Source: an uncultured Pseudomonadales bacterium
GTDB taxonomy: Bacteria; Pseudomonadota; Alphaproteobacteria; UBA2136; UBA6156
DNA length: 64,000 nt
Direction: 5' to 3'
Assembly: GCA_964601735.1 (NCBI GenBank)
Contig: CAZROO010000001.1
Coordinates: forward strand, 52,093-116,092
The translations under genes and the position numbers were made by a program. Each line of letters begins with the position of its first letter. Position 1 is the stretch's first letter. Below, piece after piece: positions 43,658-45,952 of this stretch. A model generated the notes under the pieces. The model ran no database searches, had not been told where the DNA came from, and saw only the letters and a program-made list of their open reading frames with translations.

Positions 43658-45952
43658 ATGGCCACCAAAACCAAAAAGCCCGCGCCCAAACCCAAGGGCA
43701 AACCCGCCGCCGCAAAACCCAAAGTGGCGCGCAGGGCCAGCTCCGGCAATCCGGTAACCCGGCAATCCGGTAAACCGGTAATACCCCAACGCCGGAGCAC
43801 TGACCGGCCTCAAACCACCGAGCAGCTCTTAACGCTCGACGCCGGCTACCAGCAGGCGCGCAGCAATGCCGCCACCTATTTGCATAGCCGCCGCCAGGCC
43901 GCCTTCGCCTTGGCCCGCCGCTACCACCTCGATGCCGACGATTTGATGCAGGAAGGCTACGAAATCCTCCTCACCTGCCTGCGCGACTTCCAGCCGCTGC
44001 GCAAAAACGATGAAACCGGCGAAGCCACCACCGTGCAATTCAACACTTTTTTCGGCGCCCGGCTCGAAGGCAAGGCGATGGAACTCCGCAACCGCGACCC
44101 CGAATACCAGGCGCGTCAGGCCCACACGGCCGACATGACCGACGAGGAGCGCGATAGCTTCCGCAAAAACCCGCCGCTGCTGGTGCAGCATCTCGACCAG
44201 GAAACGACGATGCAGGAGCACCTGCAATCCGAAGTCTCCGGCGCCCAGCGCGCCCGCACCACCAACGTGCGGCAAAAAATTTTGCAGGATAGCTACATCG
44301 ACCGCAAACTGACCGAACTCATCGCCGCCGAACGCGACGACCAGCGCCGTGCCGCGCTGCTGCAAGTGAAGGTCGGCGGCCTCTCCACTTTCGACGACAT
44401 TGCCTACCATTTCGGGGTGACCGACAGCCGCGCCAGCCAGATCCTCAACGACCTGATGGATGCGTTCTATGTCCAGCGCCTGCTTGATGGCGACCTCAAG
44501 AGCGTGGCCTACGACTTCCGCAAAATCAAAATGGCCGACAAGCGCGCGCTGCGCCTGCTGGCCGAGGCCATCAACAACGCGCCGCCGCCCCGCGCTCAGG
44601 CGCTCGCCGAAATCTTCACGCCCGACTACCCCGACGTCGCCACCCTCCTCGCCGCCCGCAATACCTCCGGCCCCATTCCCGTGAAGGCGGGAATCCAGGG
44701 GGAAGTTCACAGCGGCCAGGTGATGGTGCCTGCCGACCAACCCGAAAAGCTCTTCACCCCGCTCGACATCAACCTCTACCCGCCGGTCGAAATCGGTTGG
44801 CGCGAAACCGCCACGCTGTCGCCCCATCCTGTCACCTTCCGAGCGCCCGAAGAAAGCGACACCTCAAAAAATTCCGGCTTCATGCCAGCACAGGCTGGTA
44901 TCCACGCTCCTTCTTTCCCGGCCCATATTGAACGCCTCATGGCCAGCGGCCCCGAGCACTGGCCGCTCATTGTCACCGAGCAGGGTGTGGTTATCGACGG
45001 TGTTCGTCGCCTTGCCGCCGCCCGCGCCAAAAACATCGACCGCGTGCTCTGCCACGTCCACAAAATGGCCGAACCCGACACCGCCATCATGCGCGTCGTC
45101 CTCAACATGCGCGCCATCCGGCCCGAAAAACTCGATCTCTACTTCGCCATCGCCGCACTGCTCAGGCAGGGCCTGTCGCAGGGCAAGGTCGCGGCCGCAC
45201 TCAACACCAGTCGCCCCAATGTCATTGTCTATGCCAAGGTGGCCGAAAAAGCCGCGCCGGACCTCCGCCGGCTGTTCGAGGAAGGCCTTATCCAGGTTAC
45301 CAATGCCAGCGCCTGCGTCGACCTGCCCGCCAATACCCAGGCGGCTATTGCTCGTGCCATCCGCACCCTGGGGCCGGAGTGGTCCAAGGGCCCCAAGTTT
45401 ACCGACATGTTCAGTGCCGCCGAAACCGGCAAGCTCGAAAAATACCTGAAATCGGTCGGCGGTGACACCGGAGCGACAGCCGCGCACCAATTAGCGCCGC
45501 AAGACGCTATTTCTGCGCCGCAAACCGACAGTGCTGCGACAGCGCTGCGACAGTCCGGCATCAATCCTGCACAGGTACAGCACCTGCAAAATGCCCTGGT
45601 GGAGGCCGAAACCTGGGCCACCCGCCGCGACGCCACTATTGCTCAACAAATAAGCGAAATCAACGAGTTAAAAGATAAGGTCGGCAAGCTCACCAGCGAG
45701 CTCGAAGCCGCTCGCCTGCTCTCCCAGGCCGACCAGTCCACCATCCAGGCCTACCTCAAAGAAATCAAGTTATTTCATGGGGTTACAGAGCGTCTGCAAG
45801 CCGCCGCCCACCACATCCAGCAGGCTGCCAGGCCCCTTCGCTCACTCCAACTGACAATGAGGCAAACCCATGAAATGCAAGAGATTTGTGAGTCCATCGC
45901 CAGCCAGCTCACGGCCTTGCGGTTGGCTTTGCAACGCACCCCCGGCCAATAG
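43658..45952 (+). CDS. fusion ORF: basic N-tail + sigma-70-like regions 2 and 4 + ParB-like N-terminal domain/HTH + C-terminal coiled coil
   Basis: DDLMQEGYEILLTCLRDF (region 2.x-like), LSTFDDIAYHFGVTDSRASQILNDLMDAF (region 4 HTH-like), VVIDGVRRLAAARAKNIDRVLCHV (ParB-like), and GLSQGKVAAALNTSRPNV (HTH). Confidence 0.6.
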   Translation: MATKTKKPAPKPKGKPAAAKPKVARRASSGNPVTRQSGKPVIPQRRSTDRPQTTEQLLTLDAGYQQARSNAATYLHSRRQAAFALARRYHLDADDLMQEGYEILLTCLRDFQPLRKNDETGEATTVQFNTFFGARLEGKAMELRNRDPEYQARQAHTADMTDEERDSFRKNPPLLVQHLDQETTMQEHLQSEVSGAQRARTTNVRQKILQDSYIDRKLTELIAAERDDQRRAALLQVKVGGLSTFDDIAYHFGVTDSRASQILNDLMDAFYVQRLLDGDLKSVAYDFRKIKMADKRALRLLAEAINNAPPPRAQALAEIFTPDYPDVATLLAARNTSGPIPVKAGIQGEVHSGQVMVPADQPEKLFTPLDINLYPPVEIGWRETATLSPHPVTFRAPEESDTSKNSGFMPAQAGIHAPSFPAHIERLMASGPEHWPLIVTEQGVVIDGVRRLAAARAKNIDRVLCHVHKMAEPDTAIMRVVLNMRAIRPEKLDLYFAIAALLRQGLSQGKVAAALNTSRPNVIVYAKVAEKAAPDLRRLFEEGLIQVTNASACVDLPANTQAAIARAIRTLGPEWSKGPKFTDMFSAAETGKLEKYLKSVGGDTGATAAHQLAPQDAISAPQTDSAATALRQSGINPAQVQHLQNALVEAETWATRRDATIAQQISEINELKDKVGKLTSELEAARLLSQADQSTIQAYLKEIKLFHGVTERLQAAAHHIQQAARPLRSLQLTMRQTHEMQEICESIASQLTALRLALQRTPGQ
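44675..44697. repeat. related palindromic element (ATTCCCG/CGGGAAT stem), in frame in a CDS
   Basis: ATTCCCG-TGAAGG-CGGGAAT-CCA; encodes IPVKAGIQ. Confidence 0.65.
44885..44917. repeat. 33-nt palindromic element variant, in frame in a CDS
   Basis: CGGCTTC-ATGCCAGC-ACAG-GCTGGTAT-CCACGC; encodes GFMPAQAGIHA in the linker of the sigma/ParB ORF. Confidence 0.75.

What the first reader, a model, noticed from the sequence alone, without database searches (positions are those of the whole stretch)
43658..45952. Single 764-aa ORF combining sigma-70-like regions 2 and 4 with a ParB-like domain and a coiled-coil tail, with palindromic elements in the linker
Residues of about 60-290 read like a small sigma factor: ARRYHLDADDLMQEGYEILLTCLRDF, then a region-4-type HTH LSTFDDIAYHFGVTDSRASQILNDL. 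Residues of about 430-560 read like a ParB N-terminal domain plus HTH: VVIDGVRRLAAARAKNIDRVLCHV and GLSQGKVAAALNTSRPNV. The last 150 or so residues are coiled coil, and the N-terminus is a Lys/Pro-rich basic tail. I do not know of a described sigma-ParB fusion. The linker between the halves contains two copies of the GAAG-loop palindromic element (44675-44697 and 44885-44917), which is otherwise seen in intergenic DNA. This suggests two neighbouring genes became fused through a former intergenic spacer. A locus-specific sigma/ParB regulator could explain the recurring CCTGT-type boxes upstream of several operons.
Basis: partly seen in the sequence, partly recalled or inferred. Interest (0 to 1): 0.7.

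Follow-up and report, generated by a model that had tools for sequence, protein, structure and literature searches.

The report
Conserved sigma-ParB fusion regulator gene
One intact 764-residue gene joins a divergent sigma-factor-like module to a ParB-type DNA-clamp module, and this old fusion sits at a fixed place in a conjugation-type secretion gene cluster of uncultured Alphaproteobacteria, where it most likely controls that cluster's transcription.

Summary
The ORF 43658-45952 (+) is real and intact.

- **Not an artefact or a recent fusion.** More than 130 full-length homologues (39-88% identity, 690-800 aa) share the same architecture. In 32 MAG species the gene sits at the same position in an F-type type IV secretion cluster.
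- **ParB half.** It is firmly supported by profile and fold. The GxxR nucleotide-binding motif is invariant, but the catalytic Glu of ENxxR is always hydrophobic.
- **Sigma half.** It is supported by the TIGR02937 sigma-70 model (41 of 45 members, best 47.5 bits, above the cut-off). Fold support is only weak. It is the most conserved part of the protein.
- **Palindromes.** The two linker palindromes exist. They are lineage-specific insertions of a small repeat element into disordered linkers, not relics of an intergenic spacer.
- **New cis element.** A split inverted repeat, TGTCAG-N16-18/27-29-CTGACA, overlaps the -35 of the gene's own promoter in at least 17 loci.

My best reading is a cluster-dedicated, autoregulated transcription factor that combines a ParB-type clamp with an RNA-polymerase-recruiting module. 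The closest known systems are BisD of ICEclc and KorB. A phage ParB-Sigma70 fusion with the opposite domain order was reported in 2025. I rate this a new variant of a known kind, and the function is inferred, not shown.

The parts
43658..45952 (+). Complete sigma-ParB fusion ORF, 764 aa
   Evidence: The ORF list shows it uninterrupted. More than 130 full-length homologues cover over 90% of it. It aligns colinearly with 44 homologues.
43658..43810 (+). Basic, disordered N-terminal tail rich in Lys, Pro and Ala (residues 1-51)
   Evidence: pLDDT is below 50 for residues 1-49. Mean pairwise identity across the family is 0.23 and the length varies. The DNA holds a short direct repeat at 43743-43782.
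43829..44593 (+). Sigma-70-family-like module (residues 58-312). The region 2-like part is about residues 78-160. The region 4-like HTH is about residues 225-277, with an invariant FGVTDSRASQ.
   Evidence: TIGR02937 matches residues 78-267 to model positions 25-158 of 165 at E=4.7e-6. It matches 41 of 45 members, best 47.5 bits against a cut-off of 42.9. Pfam Sigma70_r4 matches 8 of 45 members and Sigma70_r2 matches 2 of 45. Foldseek ranks sigma factors first, but with E of 0.33 or worse. This is the most conserved part: 0.64 identity overall and 0.76 in the region 4-like part.
44675..44694 (+). Palindromic repeat copy ATTCCCG-TGAAGG-CGGGAAT in linker 1. It encodes IPVKAGI in frame.
   Evidence: Hairpin scans found it. 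It lies in the segment 340-359 where pLDDT is below 50. Only the window protein and P0002 share it.
44744..45067 (+). ParB/Srx-type N-terminal nucleotide-binding domain (residues 363-470). The DGxRR (GxxR) motif is at 44996-45010.
   Evidence: The family profile aligns to Spo0J 1vz0 and ParB 6sdk across GERR. Foldseek matches ParB, Noc and KorB. D447, G448 and R451 are invariant in all 45 sequences. At the ENxxR position the Glu is replaced by L, V or I in 42 of 45 members and is never Glu, N483 is kept in 44 and R485 in 42.
44855..44908 (+). An 18-residue insertion (residues 400-417, SDTSKNSGFMPAQAGIHA) inside the ParB N-domain loop. It holds the palindromic repeat copy ATGCCAGC-ACAG-GCTGGTAT at 44882-44901.
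   Evidence: It is absent from all 44 aligned homologues. The same element with the same flanks GGCTTC|..|CCACGC occurs at 35172 and 38565. pLDDT is below 50 for residues 403-414.
45068..45457 (+). ParB-type HTH DNA-binding domain with a helical extension (residues 471-600). The HTH GLSQGKVAAALNTSRPNV is at about 45170-45223.
   Evidence: The profile alignment to 1vz0 and 6sdk runs through the HTH. The Pfam KorB domain matches 7 of 45 members. KorB structures 8qa9 and 1r71 and the Noc DNA-binding domain are fold matches. Mean identity is 0.56.
45566..45937 (+). C-terminal three-helix coiled-coil region (residues 637-760), presumed to be the dimerisation module
   Evidence: The AlphaFold2 model has helices at 637-688, 693-729 and 734-760. 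The only family matches are coiled-coil-type (ATG16, HlyD). W653 and R657 are invariant. No ParB C-terminal domain was detected.
43590..43641 (+). Conserved promoter and operator of the gene. The left half-site TGTCAG is at 43590-43595. The right half-site CTGACA, which is also the -35, is at 43613-43618. The extended -10, TGC-TAGCGT, is at 43633-43641.
   Evidence: TGTCAG-N-CTGACA occurs 17 times in 575 kb, against a shuffle mean of 1.1, and every copy lies directly upstream of the orthologue. The spacings fall into two classes, 16-18 and 27-29. CTGACA-N13-15-TGn(T/C)AnnnT gives 11 hits, 10 of them upstream of the orthologue, against a shuffle mean of 1.25.
43548..43580 (+). Array of three to four CCTGTAA-like units directly upstream of the conserved inverted repeat
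   Evidence: The CCTGT spacing patterns are above chance: 2 and 3 hits against 0.1 and 0.08 expected. The closest orthologue, L001, lacks the array.
43518..43543 (+). Terminator-like hairpin AAAGGCCGCCC-GCAA-GGGCGGCCTTT that closes the upstream small-ORF unit
   Evidence: It is an inverted repeat with 11 perfectly complementary pairs. A similar hairpin is at the same place in L001.

Best explanation
The gene encodes a dedicated transcription regulator of the surrounding F-type type IV secretion and type IV pilus cluster. It is one polypeptide with five parts:
1. a basic disordered tail;
2. a divergent sigma-70-family module (sigma-2-like plus sigma-4-like HTH);
3. an orphan ParB-type module (nucleotide-binding N-domain plus HTH DNA-binding domain);
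4. disordered linkers between them;
5. a coiled coil that replaces the usual ParB dimerisation domain.

**Inferred mechanism.**
- The coiled coil makes a dimer.
- The ParB half binds a nucleotide through its invariant GxxR motif and loads on, or clamps, cluster DNA. Because the catalytic Glu is missing, it probably hydrolyses slowly or not at all.
- The sigma-like half contacts RNA polymerase and/or -35-like DNA, so that transcription of the transfer genes is switched on from DNA-bound protein.
- This would parallel BisD-BisC on ICEclc, but with the activating module built into the same chain.
- The gene controls its own promoter through the conserved split inverted repeat, whose right arm is the -35 hexamer.

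**Shown here:** the architecture, its conservation, the synteny, the motif states and the cis element.

**Inferred only:** dimerisation, nucleotide binding, clamp behaviour, contact with RNA polymerase, and the identity of the target promoters.
For: **Architecture and age.**
- The ORF is intact.
- More than 130 homologues are full-length.
- The sigma half has almost no relatives outside the fusion among 1.84 billion representative proteins: 14 of 17 matches are the family or its fragments, and the other three are weak, partial and unexamined.

**Sigma half.**
- TIGR02937 matches 41 of 45 members, best 47.5 bits against a cut-off of 42.9, and the match spans both region 2 and region 4.
- Sigma factors rank first in the PDB fold search and are among the top hits in the BFVD (viral) one.
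- It has the highest conservation in the protein: 0.64 identity overall and 0.76 for the sigma-4-like part.

**ParB half.**
- The family profile matches Spo0J and ParB.
- Foldseek matches ParB, Noc and KorB at E of 1e-5 to 1e-4.
- G448 and R451 are invariant.

**Context.**
- The gene lies between the TraE- and TraK-like genes and the TraB-, TraV- and TraC-like genes, next to a lytic transglycosylase and a UvrD-like helicase. This order holds in up to 25 of the 32 loci, depending on the gene and on how much flank each contig has.
- No ParA was found among the ORFs I scanned.

**Cis element.** The split inverted repeat overlapping a sigma-70-type promoter is found only upstream of this gene, with spacings that differ by about one helical turn.

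**Precedent.**
- BisD is a ParB-CTP clamp fused to an activation domain. It slides about 50 kb and activates 11 transfer promoters of an ICE (PMC12409273).
- KorB and VirB are ParB-type regulators (PMC11790492 and PMC10770331, listed).
Against: - The window protein's own sigma score is below the curated cut-off.
- A profile of the sigma half finds no solved sigma factor by sequence.
- The Foldseek E-values for sigma factors are not significant, at 0.33 or worse.
- The ENxxR catalytic motif is not conserved, so a canonical CTP hydrolysis cycle is doubtful.
- I found no compact parS-like palindrome conserved across the loci.
- The conserved promoter motif appears only at the gene itself, not at other operons, so no regulon is defined.
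- The pilin-like gene has a conserved, ordinary sigma-70-type promoter, TTGAAA-N16-CATACT. That promoter needs no special sigma.
Confidence: 0.5

Rival explanations
1. It is a ParB-type repressor or anti-silencer, in the manner of KorB or VirB. On this reading the N-terminal half is not a working sigma factor. It is a second, sigma-4-derived DNA-binding and protein-interaction module that never binds core RNA polymerase. The dimer sits on the split inverted repeat and on the CCTGT-type arrays, and it shuts off or de-silences the transfer genes.
For: - The strongest single-domain signals in the N-half are generic HTH families at residues 241-277: HTH_Crp_2 in 35 of 45 members and MarR_2 in 19 of 45.
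- The right arm of the inverted repeat overlaps the -35 hexamer, which is a classic repressor position.
- The two spacing classes differ by one helical turn, which fits a flexible dimer of HTH domains.
- KorB is a fold and domain match.
- The other promoters I could recognise look like ordinary sigma-70 promoters.
Against: - The TIGR02937 match extends over region 2 as well as region 4 (model positions 3-158) and exceeds the cut-off in P0077.
- The region 2-like segment is highly conserved, at 0.66 identity. That is hard to explain if only an HTH were needed.
- Solved sigma-2 domains (8b3z, 5h6x) are among the best structural matches.
Confidence: 0.3
2. It is a DNA-processing or DNA-handling accessory of the secretion system rather than a transcription factor. 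The ParB half would mark or condense the DNA substrate. Together with the adjacent UvrD-like helicase and the coupling protein it would prepare DNA for transfer or release. The sigma-like half would serve in sequence-specific or single-strand DNA recognition at an origin of transfer.
For: - The gene is conserved next to a UvrD-like helicase (25 loci; Pfam UvrD-helicase E=1.8e-10).
- A coupling-protein gene is present at 14154-15599.
- Pfam found no relaxase among the large ORFs, so some unrecognised DNA-processing proteins are needed.
- From memory, not tested here: ParA- and ParB-like proteins are required for DNA secretion by the F-like system of the gonococcal genetic island.
Against: - No origin-of-transfer-like site or compact palindrome is conserved near the gene.
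- The only conserved site is promoter-shaped and lies at the gene's own start.
- Sigma homology has no known role in relaxosomes.
- No ParA partner was found.
Confidence: 0.15
3. It is an assembly error, or a very recent fusion of two ordinary neighbouring genes through an intergenic spacer that still carries its palindromes.
For: Two palindromic repeat copies of a kind also seen in intergenic DNA (for example 42821-42840) lie in the linkers.
Against: - The same single-ORF architecture is found in more than 130 independent assemblies, down to 39% identity.
- The sigma half has no clear stand-alone relatives.
- The palindromes are absent from the homologues.
- Other copies of the same repeat also lie inside ORFs, at 35172 and 38565.
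Confidence: 0.02

Closest known systems
BisD (with BisC) of ICEclc, Pseudomonas (PMC12409273)
   Same: - It is an orphan ParB-type N-domain plus HTH fused in one chain to a transcription-activating and dimerising module through long disordered linkers.
- It is encoded inside a conjugative-transfer gene cluster.
- It keeps the GxxR motif.
- It has no ParA partner role.
   Different: - BisD has its ParB part at the N-terminus and an all-helical activator domain of unknown origin at the C-terminus. It also needs the separate FlhC-like BisC.
- Here the extra module is N-terminal and sigma-70-like, and a separate coiled coil follows the ParB part.
- BisD keeps ENxxR (E136-N137..R140). This family has no Glu there.
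- The T4SS here is F-type rather than the ICEclc type.
- No member matched any ICE-class ParB model at E up to 0.01.
KorB of plasmid RK2 (PMC11790492)
   Same: - It is a ParB-family regulator of a conjugative element's genes.
- The Pfam KorB domain matches 7 of 45 members.
- KorB structures 8qa9, 8qa8 and 1r71 are fold matches.
   Different: - KorB is a repressor that works with KorA.
- It has compact palindromic operators.
- It has its own C-terminal dimerisation domain.
- It has no sigma-like module.
Phage ParB-CTPase-Sigma70 fusion tested by Kaljevic et al. 2025 (PMC12704722; construct gdpSigma70, gBlock 84)
   Same: It combines a ParB-CTPase fold with a Sigma70-annotated domain in one protein. 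The tested example binds a nucleotide (ATP) through the GxxR arginine.
   Different: - It comes from a gut-phage database. The construct name says so, and the partial sequence has its ParB fold at about residues 41-81 with GEHRVRA.
- The domain order is therefore reversed.
- No full ParB HTH, coiled coil or T4SS context is described for it.
- No homologue of the window protein exists in 50,697 phage records.
Group 4 (ECF-type) sigma factors, NCBIfam TIGR02937
   Same: A two-domain sigma-2 plus sigma-4 layout without region 3. It has a region 2.2-like DDLxQEgyexLL motif and a region 4.2-like HTH, FGVTDSRASQI.
   Different: - There is an insertion of about 65 residues between the two domains and a beta-hairpin insert at residues 114-125.
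- The protein is fused to some 450 further residues.
- Most members score below the curated cut-off.
- No anti-sigma gene was recognised.
Phage T4 late transcription: the gp45 sliding clamp with the sigma-like gp55 and gp33 (from memory)
   Same: In concept, a DNA-tracking ring is coupled to a sigma-family protein, so that promoter activation depends on DNA-loaded protein.
   Different: In T4 the clamp and the sigma-like protein are separate proteins, and the clamp is a PCNA-type ring. No homology to this family is implied. This is an analogy only.

Membership tests
Sigma-70 family (group 4 / ECF-like) | Sigma-2 domain (regions 2.1-2.4) recognisable by profile | tested here: met
   TIGR02937 matches 41 of 45 family members, starting from model position 3-25. 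P0077 scores 47.5 bits against a cut-off of 42.9. The window protein's own scores are below threshold: 26.3 bits for TIGR02937 and E=0.009 for Pfam Sigma70_r2 at residues 80-116.
Sigma-70 family (group 4 / ECF-like) | Sigma-4 domain with the region 4.2 HTH | tested here: met
   The TIGR02937 alignment reaches model position 158 of 165. Pfam Sigma70_r4 matches 8 of 45 members, best E=1.8e-4. The HTH is predicted at residues 245-277.
Sigma-70 family (group 4 / ECF-like) | Fold similarity to solved sigma factors | tested here: inconclusive
   Sigma factors rank first (6omf_F; SigE N-domain 8b3z with a target-normalised TM-score of 0.59; RpoS sigma-2 5h6x at 0.53), but E is 0.33 or worse. Phage sigma factors are among the top BFVD hits, with E of 0.036 or worse. 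A profile of the N-half finds no PDB chain.
Sigma-70 family (group 4 / ECF-like) | Binds core RNA polymerase and directs promoter-specific initiation | not testable with these tools
   This needs biochemistry or complex modelling. No regulon motif was found beyond the gene's own promoter.
ParB / ParB-CTPase fold family | ParB/Srx N-terminal domain with the GxxR phosphate-binding motif | tested here: met
   The profile alignment to 1vz0 and 6sdk covers GERR. G448 and R451 are kept in all 45 sequences and R450 in 41. Fold matches have E from 1.3e-5.
ParB / ParB-CTPase fold family | ENxxR motif with the catalytic Glu needed for CTP hydrolysis | tested here: not met
   The Glu position holds L, V or I in 42 of 45 members and is never Glu. 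N483 is kept in 44 of 45. An Arg (R485, 42 of 45) sits one position earlier than in ENxxR.
ParB / ParB-CTPase fold family | Central HTH DNA-binding domain | tested here: met
   The alignment to Spo0J and ParB continues through the HTH, GLSQ..SR.NV. KorB and Noc DNA-binding domain structures match.
ParB / ParB-CTPase fold family | ParB-type C-terminal dimerisation domain | tested here: not met
   No profile or fold match to a ParB C-domain. Residues 637-760 are three long helices.
ParB / ParB-CTPase fold family | A cognate compact palindromic parS site and a ParA partner | tested here: not met
   No compact palindrome is conserved among the 33 loci. No ParA-type ATPase was found among the window ORFs I scanned. 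Only a split inverted repeat lies at the promoter.
BisD-type ICE regulators | ParB part at the N-terminus, BisDact-type C-terminal domain, BisC partner | tested here: not met
   The domain order differs. No ICE-class ParB NCBIfam model was hit in the 45 members at E up to 0.01. BisD itself was not compared directly because I held no sequence for it.
F-type (MPF-F) type IV secretion cluster (the context) | TraE, TraB, TraC, TraU and TraF homologues plus a coupling protein | tested here: met
   TraB NF010289 E=4.5e-25. TraC TIGR02746 E=3.1e-57. TraE matches PF05309 and TIGR02761. TraU, TraF and the T4SS-DNA_transf family also match. All scores are below the equivalog cut-offs, so these are distant relatives.

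The most novel reading that the evidence does not exclude
The protein is a clamp-tethered sigma factor. On this reading a coiled-coil dimer carries a slowly hydrolysing or non-hydrolysing ParB-type nucleotide-gated clamp. The clamp loads at a site in the cluster and slides along the DNA. It carries two covalently attached sigma modules that capture core RNA polymerase and start transcription of the transfer operons. This would be a bacterial, single-chain counterpart of the phage T4 gp45-gp55 principle. It would also be the first sigma factor whose promoter search is one-dimensional.
Probability: 0.2. Interest if true: 0.85.

Novelty: new variant of a known kind. Interest (0 to 1): 0.6.

Why it matters
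ParB-type clamps have recently been shown to regulate genes over long distances (KorB, VirB, BisD), and each needs a separate partner or an activator domain of unknown origin. This family joins such a module directly to a sigma-70-family module, which points to a direct physical link between a DNA-loaded clamp and RNA polymerase.

- If the sigma half binds core polymerase, this would be a new way to deliver a sigma factor to promoters. It would also be a simple, testable system for long-range activation.
- The family marks a conserved, unstudied F-type secretion and pilus cluster in uncultured, small-genome Alphaproteobacteria-related lineages. Neither the role of that cluster (conjugation, DNA release or host interaction) nor its regulation is known.
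- For annotation, these proteins are currently labelled inconsistently: ParB, XRE, sigma factor, 'YuzD' or hypothetical.

Tried and rejected
**Searches that gave nothing useful**
Single-sequence templates are too weak for this, so I discarded the test.
2. An N-half profile (A3) searched against all PDB sequences gave no hits at E up to 10.
3. phmmer of the N-half alone against the PDB gave only a chance coiled-coil match.
4. Look-ups of the exact window protein and of P0001 in the contig index returned nothing, so I could not identify the source record.
5. tblastn against 72,556 plasmids and 50,697 phage records found no match.

**Ideas tested and rejected**
6. The GAAG-loop palindromes as operators or parS sites of the protein. 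I rejected this because they are nearly absent from 511 kb of orthologous loci, and the identical 25-mer occurs in unrelated metagenome contigs with GC content from 0.46 to 0.68.
7. Compact parS-like palindromes shared between loci. None were found.
8. The composite promoter motif, or the split inverted repeat, upstream of other cluster genes. Neither was found there.
9. A 'CCACACCC' box. It recurs at several intergenic positions (upstream of the gene, of the pilin-like gene and of the downstream gene), but it is not enriched overall: 50 hits against about 40 in shuffles. I leave it as a lead only.
10. An internal in-frame start near 44930. The TTG ORF at 44928 is in another reading frame, and nothing supports a separate ParB gene.

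**Literature**
11. A search for papers on ECF sigma factors with a ParB extension returned nothing.

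
Full report
**1. The observation**

The ORF at 43658..45952 (+) is a single uninterrupted 764-codon frame that starts with ATG. The downstream ORF that formally overlaps it (45870..) has its signal peptide starting at Met44, about 45999, so the overlap is probably not real (by reading).

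**2. Not an artefact and not a recent fusion**

- A search of 5.8 billion proteins returned 139 relatives. The best 120 were listed. Nearly all are 690-800 aa long, cover more than 90% of the query, and are 39-100% identical to it. They come from many independent assemblies, with contigs up to 1.26 Mb.
- An alignment of 45 of them is colinear from the sigma-like part to the coiled coil.
- In one-genome-per-species data, 32 species encode it. All are uncultured MAGs labelled Alphaproteobacteria or Proteobacteria, some mislabelled with other names.
- phmmer with the N-terminal 296 residues against 1.84 billion representative proteins found only 17 matches. Fourteen are the same family or its fragments. 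The other three (P0129, P0130, P0131) are weak partial matches that I did not examine. So the sigma-like half has no evident stand-alone relatives.
- No homologue exists in 72,556 plasmid or 50,697 phage records.

**3. Domain evidence**

*ParB half*
- The family profile matches Thermus Spo0J 1vz0 (E=2.8e-5) and B. subtilis ParB 6sdk (E=6.5e-5), from the Srx-like N-domain through the HTH.
- NCBIfam parB_part matches 29 of 45 members, best E=1.5e-10.
- The AlphaFold2 model has mean pLDDT 79, and above 90 over most of residues 370-600.
- Its best Foldseek matches are ParB, Noc and KorB, from E=1.3e-5.
- The GxxR motif reads DGxRR, with D447, G448 and R451 invariant.
- At the ENxxR position the Glu is hydrophobic in 42 of 45 members and is never Glu, while N483 and R485 are kept.
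- The usual ParB C-terminal domain is absent. Three long helices at residues 637-760 take its place.

*Sigma half*
- For the window protein alone the evidence is weak (TIGR02937 26.3 bits, Sigma70_r2 E=0.009).
- Across the family it is good. TIGR02937 matches 41 of 45 members. P0077 scores 47.5 bits, above the 42.9 cut-off, over model positions 3-158 of 165, which covers both region 2 and region 4.
- A separate model of residues 50-345 has pLDDT 85. In the PDB fold search it ranks sigma factors first, but without significance: 6omf_F at E=0.33, the SigE N-domain at a target-normalised TM-score of 0.59, and RpoS sigma-2 at 0.53. Phage sigma factors are among the top hits in the viral library.
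- The reverse search, family profile against PDB sequences, finds nothing.

I conclude that the N-half is a real but very divergent member of the sigma-70 superfamily. It carries an insertion of about 65 residues between the two domains.

*Conservation by part* (mean pairwise identity)

| Part | Identity |
|---|---|
| Sigma-like half overall | 0.64 |
| Region 4-like part | 0.76 |
| ParB DNA-binding part | 0.56 |
| Coiled coil | 0.43 |
| ParB N-domain | 0.39 |
| Linkers and tail | 0.13-0.24 |

The sigma-like half is therefore under the strongest constraint.

**4. Context**

- tblastn of the window's neighbours against the 32 loci shows conserved synteny:
  - a prepilin-like gene (32054);
  - two unknown genes (33624, 35141);
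  - a TraE-like gene (37824) and a likely TraK-position gene (38526);
  - a lytic transglycosylase (39991) and a UvrD-like helicase (41064);
  - the fusion gene;
  - two unknown genes (45870, Cys-rich and secreted; 47879);
  - TraB-like (50002) and TraC-like (51988) genes.
- Family assignments are as follows:
  - TraB E=4.5e-25;
  - TraC E=3.1e-57;
  - TraE;
  - SLT/VirB1.
- Further upstream in the window lie TraU, TraF and a coupling protein, and a secretin, an ATPase and a platform protein of a type IV pilus.
- Housekeeping genes flank the cluster: HemN-like, MurJ, and an AI-2E transporter.
- I found no tRNA, and no integrase, relaxase or ParA among the ORFs scanned.

So the fusion gene is a fixed component of a distant F-type secretion cluster.

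**5. The palindromes**

The hairpin scan shows a repeat family of the form AT-N6-GAAG-N6'-ATCC. It has five copies, all on the + strand, and the stems differ between copies by compensating changes:

| Position | Sequence | Location |
|---|---|---|
| 35172 | ATGCCAGCGAAGGCTGGCAT | inside an ORF |
| 38565 | ATGCCAGCGAAGGCTGGCAT (identical, with identical flanks GGCTTC\|..\|CCA) | inside an ORF |
| 42821 | ATCCCGAC-GAAG-GTCGGGAT | intergenic |
| 44675 | ATTCCCG-TGAAGG-CGGGAAT | fusion gene, linker 1 |
| 44882 | ATGCCAGC-ACAG-GCTGGTAT | fusion gene, ParB N-domain loop |

- Both copies in the fusion gene fall in segments with pLDDT below 50.
- The 44882 copy lies in an 18-residue insertion that all 44 aligned homologues lack. 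The 44675 copy is shared only with the 84-88% identical P0002.
- The element is nearly absent from 511 kb of orthologous loci.
- The same 25-mer occurs in five unrelated metagenome contigs with GC content from 0.46 to 0.68.

These are therefore late, in-frame insertions of a small, widespread palindromic repeat into tolerant linkers.

**6. A conserved cis element**

- Upstream of the gene, 17 of the 33 sequences carry an exact TGTCAG-N-CTGACA inverted repeat. Shuffles give a mean of 1.1 and a maximum of 4. Every copy lies within about 100 nt upstream of the orthologue's start, and none lies elsewhere in the flanks. More loci carry one-mismatch versions.
- The spacings fall into two classes, 16-18 nt (11 loci) and 27-29 nt (5 loci). 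One locus has 6 nt. The two classes differ by about one helical turn.
- The right arm is the -35 of a promoter of the form CTGACA-N17/18-TGn(T/C)AnnnT. That motif occurs 11 times, 10 of them at this gene, against a shuffle mean of 1.25.
- In the window, the left arm is at 43590-43595, the -35 at 43613-43618 and the -10, TAGCGT, at 43636-43641.
- This is best read as an autoregulatory operator on a sigma-70-type promoter. Whether the sigma-4-like HTH or the ParB HTH binds it is unknown.
The one at 43548-43580 abuts the left arm, whose extended form is CCCTGTCAG.
- The arrays are absent from the closest orthologue, L001. One distant locus, L007, has a comparable array of five CCTGC units at the position equivalent to 36665, upstream of the pilin-like gene.
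- That pilin-like gene has a conserved canonical promoter, TTGAAA/TTGCAA-N16-17-CATAAT.

**7. Comparison with what is known**

- A 2025 survey of the ParB-CTPase fold lists a fusion to 'Sigma70' that binds ATP (PMC12704722). The construct is named gdpSigma70. Its partial sequence has the ParB fold at about residues 41-81 (GEHRVRA), so it is a phage-database protein with the opposite domain order.
- The nearest functional precedent is BisD of ICEclc. It is a ParB-CTP clamp fused to an activation domain. It loads at two sites, spreads over about 50 kb and, together with BisC, activates 11 transfer promoters (PMC12409273).
- KorB and VirB are further ParB-type regulators.
- The present family differs from all of these in four ways:
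  - the transcription module is sigma-like;
  - that module sits at the N-terminus;
  - a coiled coil takes the place of the ParB C-terminal domain;
  - the catalytic Glu is missing.

It passes the tests for 'contains a sigma-70-family module' and 'contains a ParB N-domain plus HTH'. It fails the tests for a canonical ParB: ENxxR, the C-terminal domain, parS and ParA.

**8. Verdict**

The fusion-through-a-spacer interpretation is refuted. The regulatory idea is plausible but unproven.

The best-supported model is a cluster-specific, autoregulated transcription regulator that couples a ParB-type DNA-loading module to a sigma-derived module that contacts RNA polymerase or the -35 element (confidence about 0.5).

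| Rival | Confidence |
|---|---|
| KorB-like repressor with a sigma-4-derived second HTH | 0.3 |
| DNA-handling accessory of the secretion system | 0.15 |
| Assembly error or recent fusion | 0.02 |

Novelty: a new variant of a known kind.

Noticed in passing
window 35172-35191, 38565-38584, 42821-42840, 44675-44694, 44882-44901: A family of small palindromic repeats of the form AT-N6-GAAG-N6'-ATCC. The flanks and the loop are conserved, and the stems differ between copies by compensating changes. All five copies are on the + strand, and four lie inside ORFs. In frame they encode GFMPAKAGIH-like peptides in two different proteins. The identical 25-mer occurs in five unrelated metagenome contigs with GC content from 0.46 to 0.68 (L033-L037). 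The element looks like a widespread REP/RPE-like repeat that tolerates insertion into coding sequence.
   Followed up: partly
window 36665-36705, 43198-43232, 43548-43580; L007 5391-5423: Arrays of three to five CCTGT/CCTGC-containing units with a 7-8 nt period, on the + strand, just upstream of promoters. In the window they precede the pilin-like gene, a small membrane ORF at 43320, and the fusion gene. L007 has a similar array at the pilin-equivalent position. Most other orthologous loci lack them.
   Followed up: partly
window 36715-36742 and 36771-37121; equivalent positions in L001-L031: A pilin-like small gene (116 aa, signal peptide plus hydrophobic helices) followed by a 94-aa paralogue at 37190-37474. 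It has a canonical promoter, TTGAAA/TTGCAA-N16-17-CATAAT, that is strongly conserved in nearly all orthologous loci.
   Followed up: partly
window about 10700-57800: A distant F-type type IV secretion cluster (TraU, TraF, coupling protein, TraE, TraB, TraV-like lipoprotein, TraC). It is interleaved with type IV pilus genes (secretin at 21001, ATPase at 24733, platform protein at 26601, prepilin-like at 32054) and flanked by housekeeping genes. I recognised no relaxase, integrase, ParA or tRNA. Whether it is a mobile element or a domesticated apparatus is open.
   Followed up: partly
window 39456-39779 (+), flanked by hairpins at 39320-39342, 39377-39401 and 39800-39819: A 107-aa ORF lies in a hairpin-rich gap of about 700 nt between the TraK-position gene and the transglycosylase gene. 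By eye it resembles small GIY-YIG-type nuclease proteins. I did not test this and did not check the orthologous loci.
   Followed up: no
window 13756-13800: A single extended left half-site, ACCCCCTGTCAG, is followed after 16 nt by TATACT. It lies upstream of a small ORF and the coupling-protein gene. It could be a second site related to the operator of the fusion gene.
   Followed up: no
P0129 (protein): A 1031-aa protein matches residues 186-251 of the query, the region 4-like HTH of the sigma half, in seven separate stretches. This suggests a tandem array of such HTH units.
   Followed up: no
L003 12264, L004 12236, L007 12167, L011 3081, L030 4812; L003 3263, L005 731, L006 4267, L026 4291: A GCCACACCCC box recurs at three kinds of intergenic position in several orthologous loci: upstream of the fusion gene, directly after it, and upstream of the pilin-like gene. 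It is not enriched overall against shuffles, so it is only a lead for a shared operator.
   Followed up: partly
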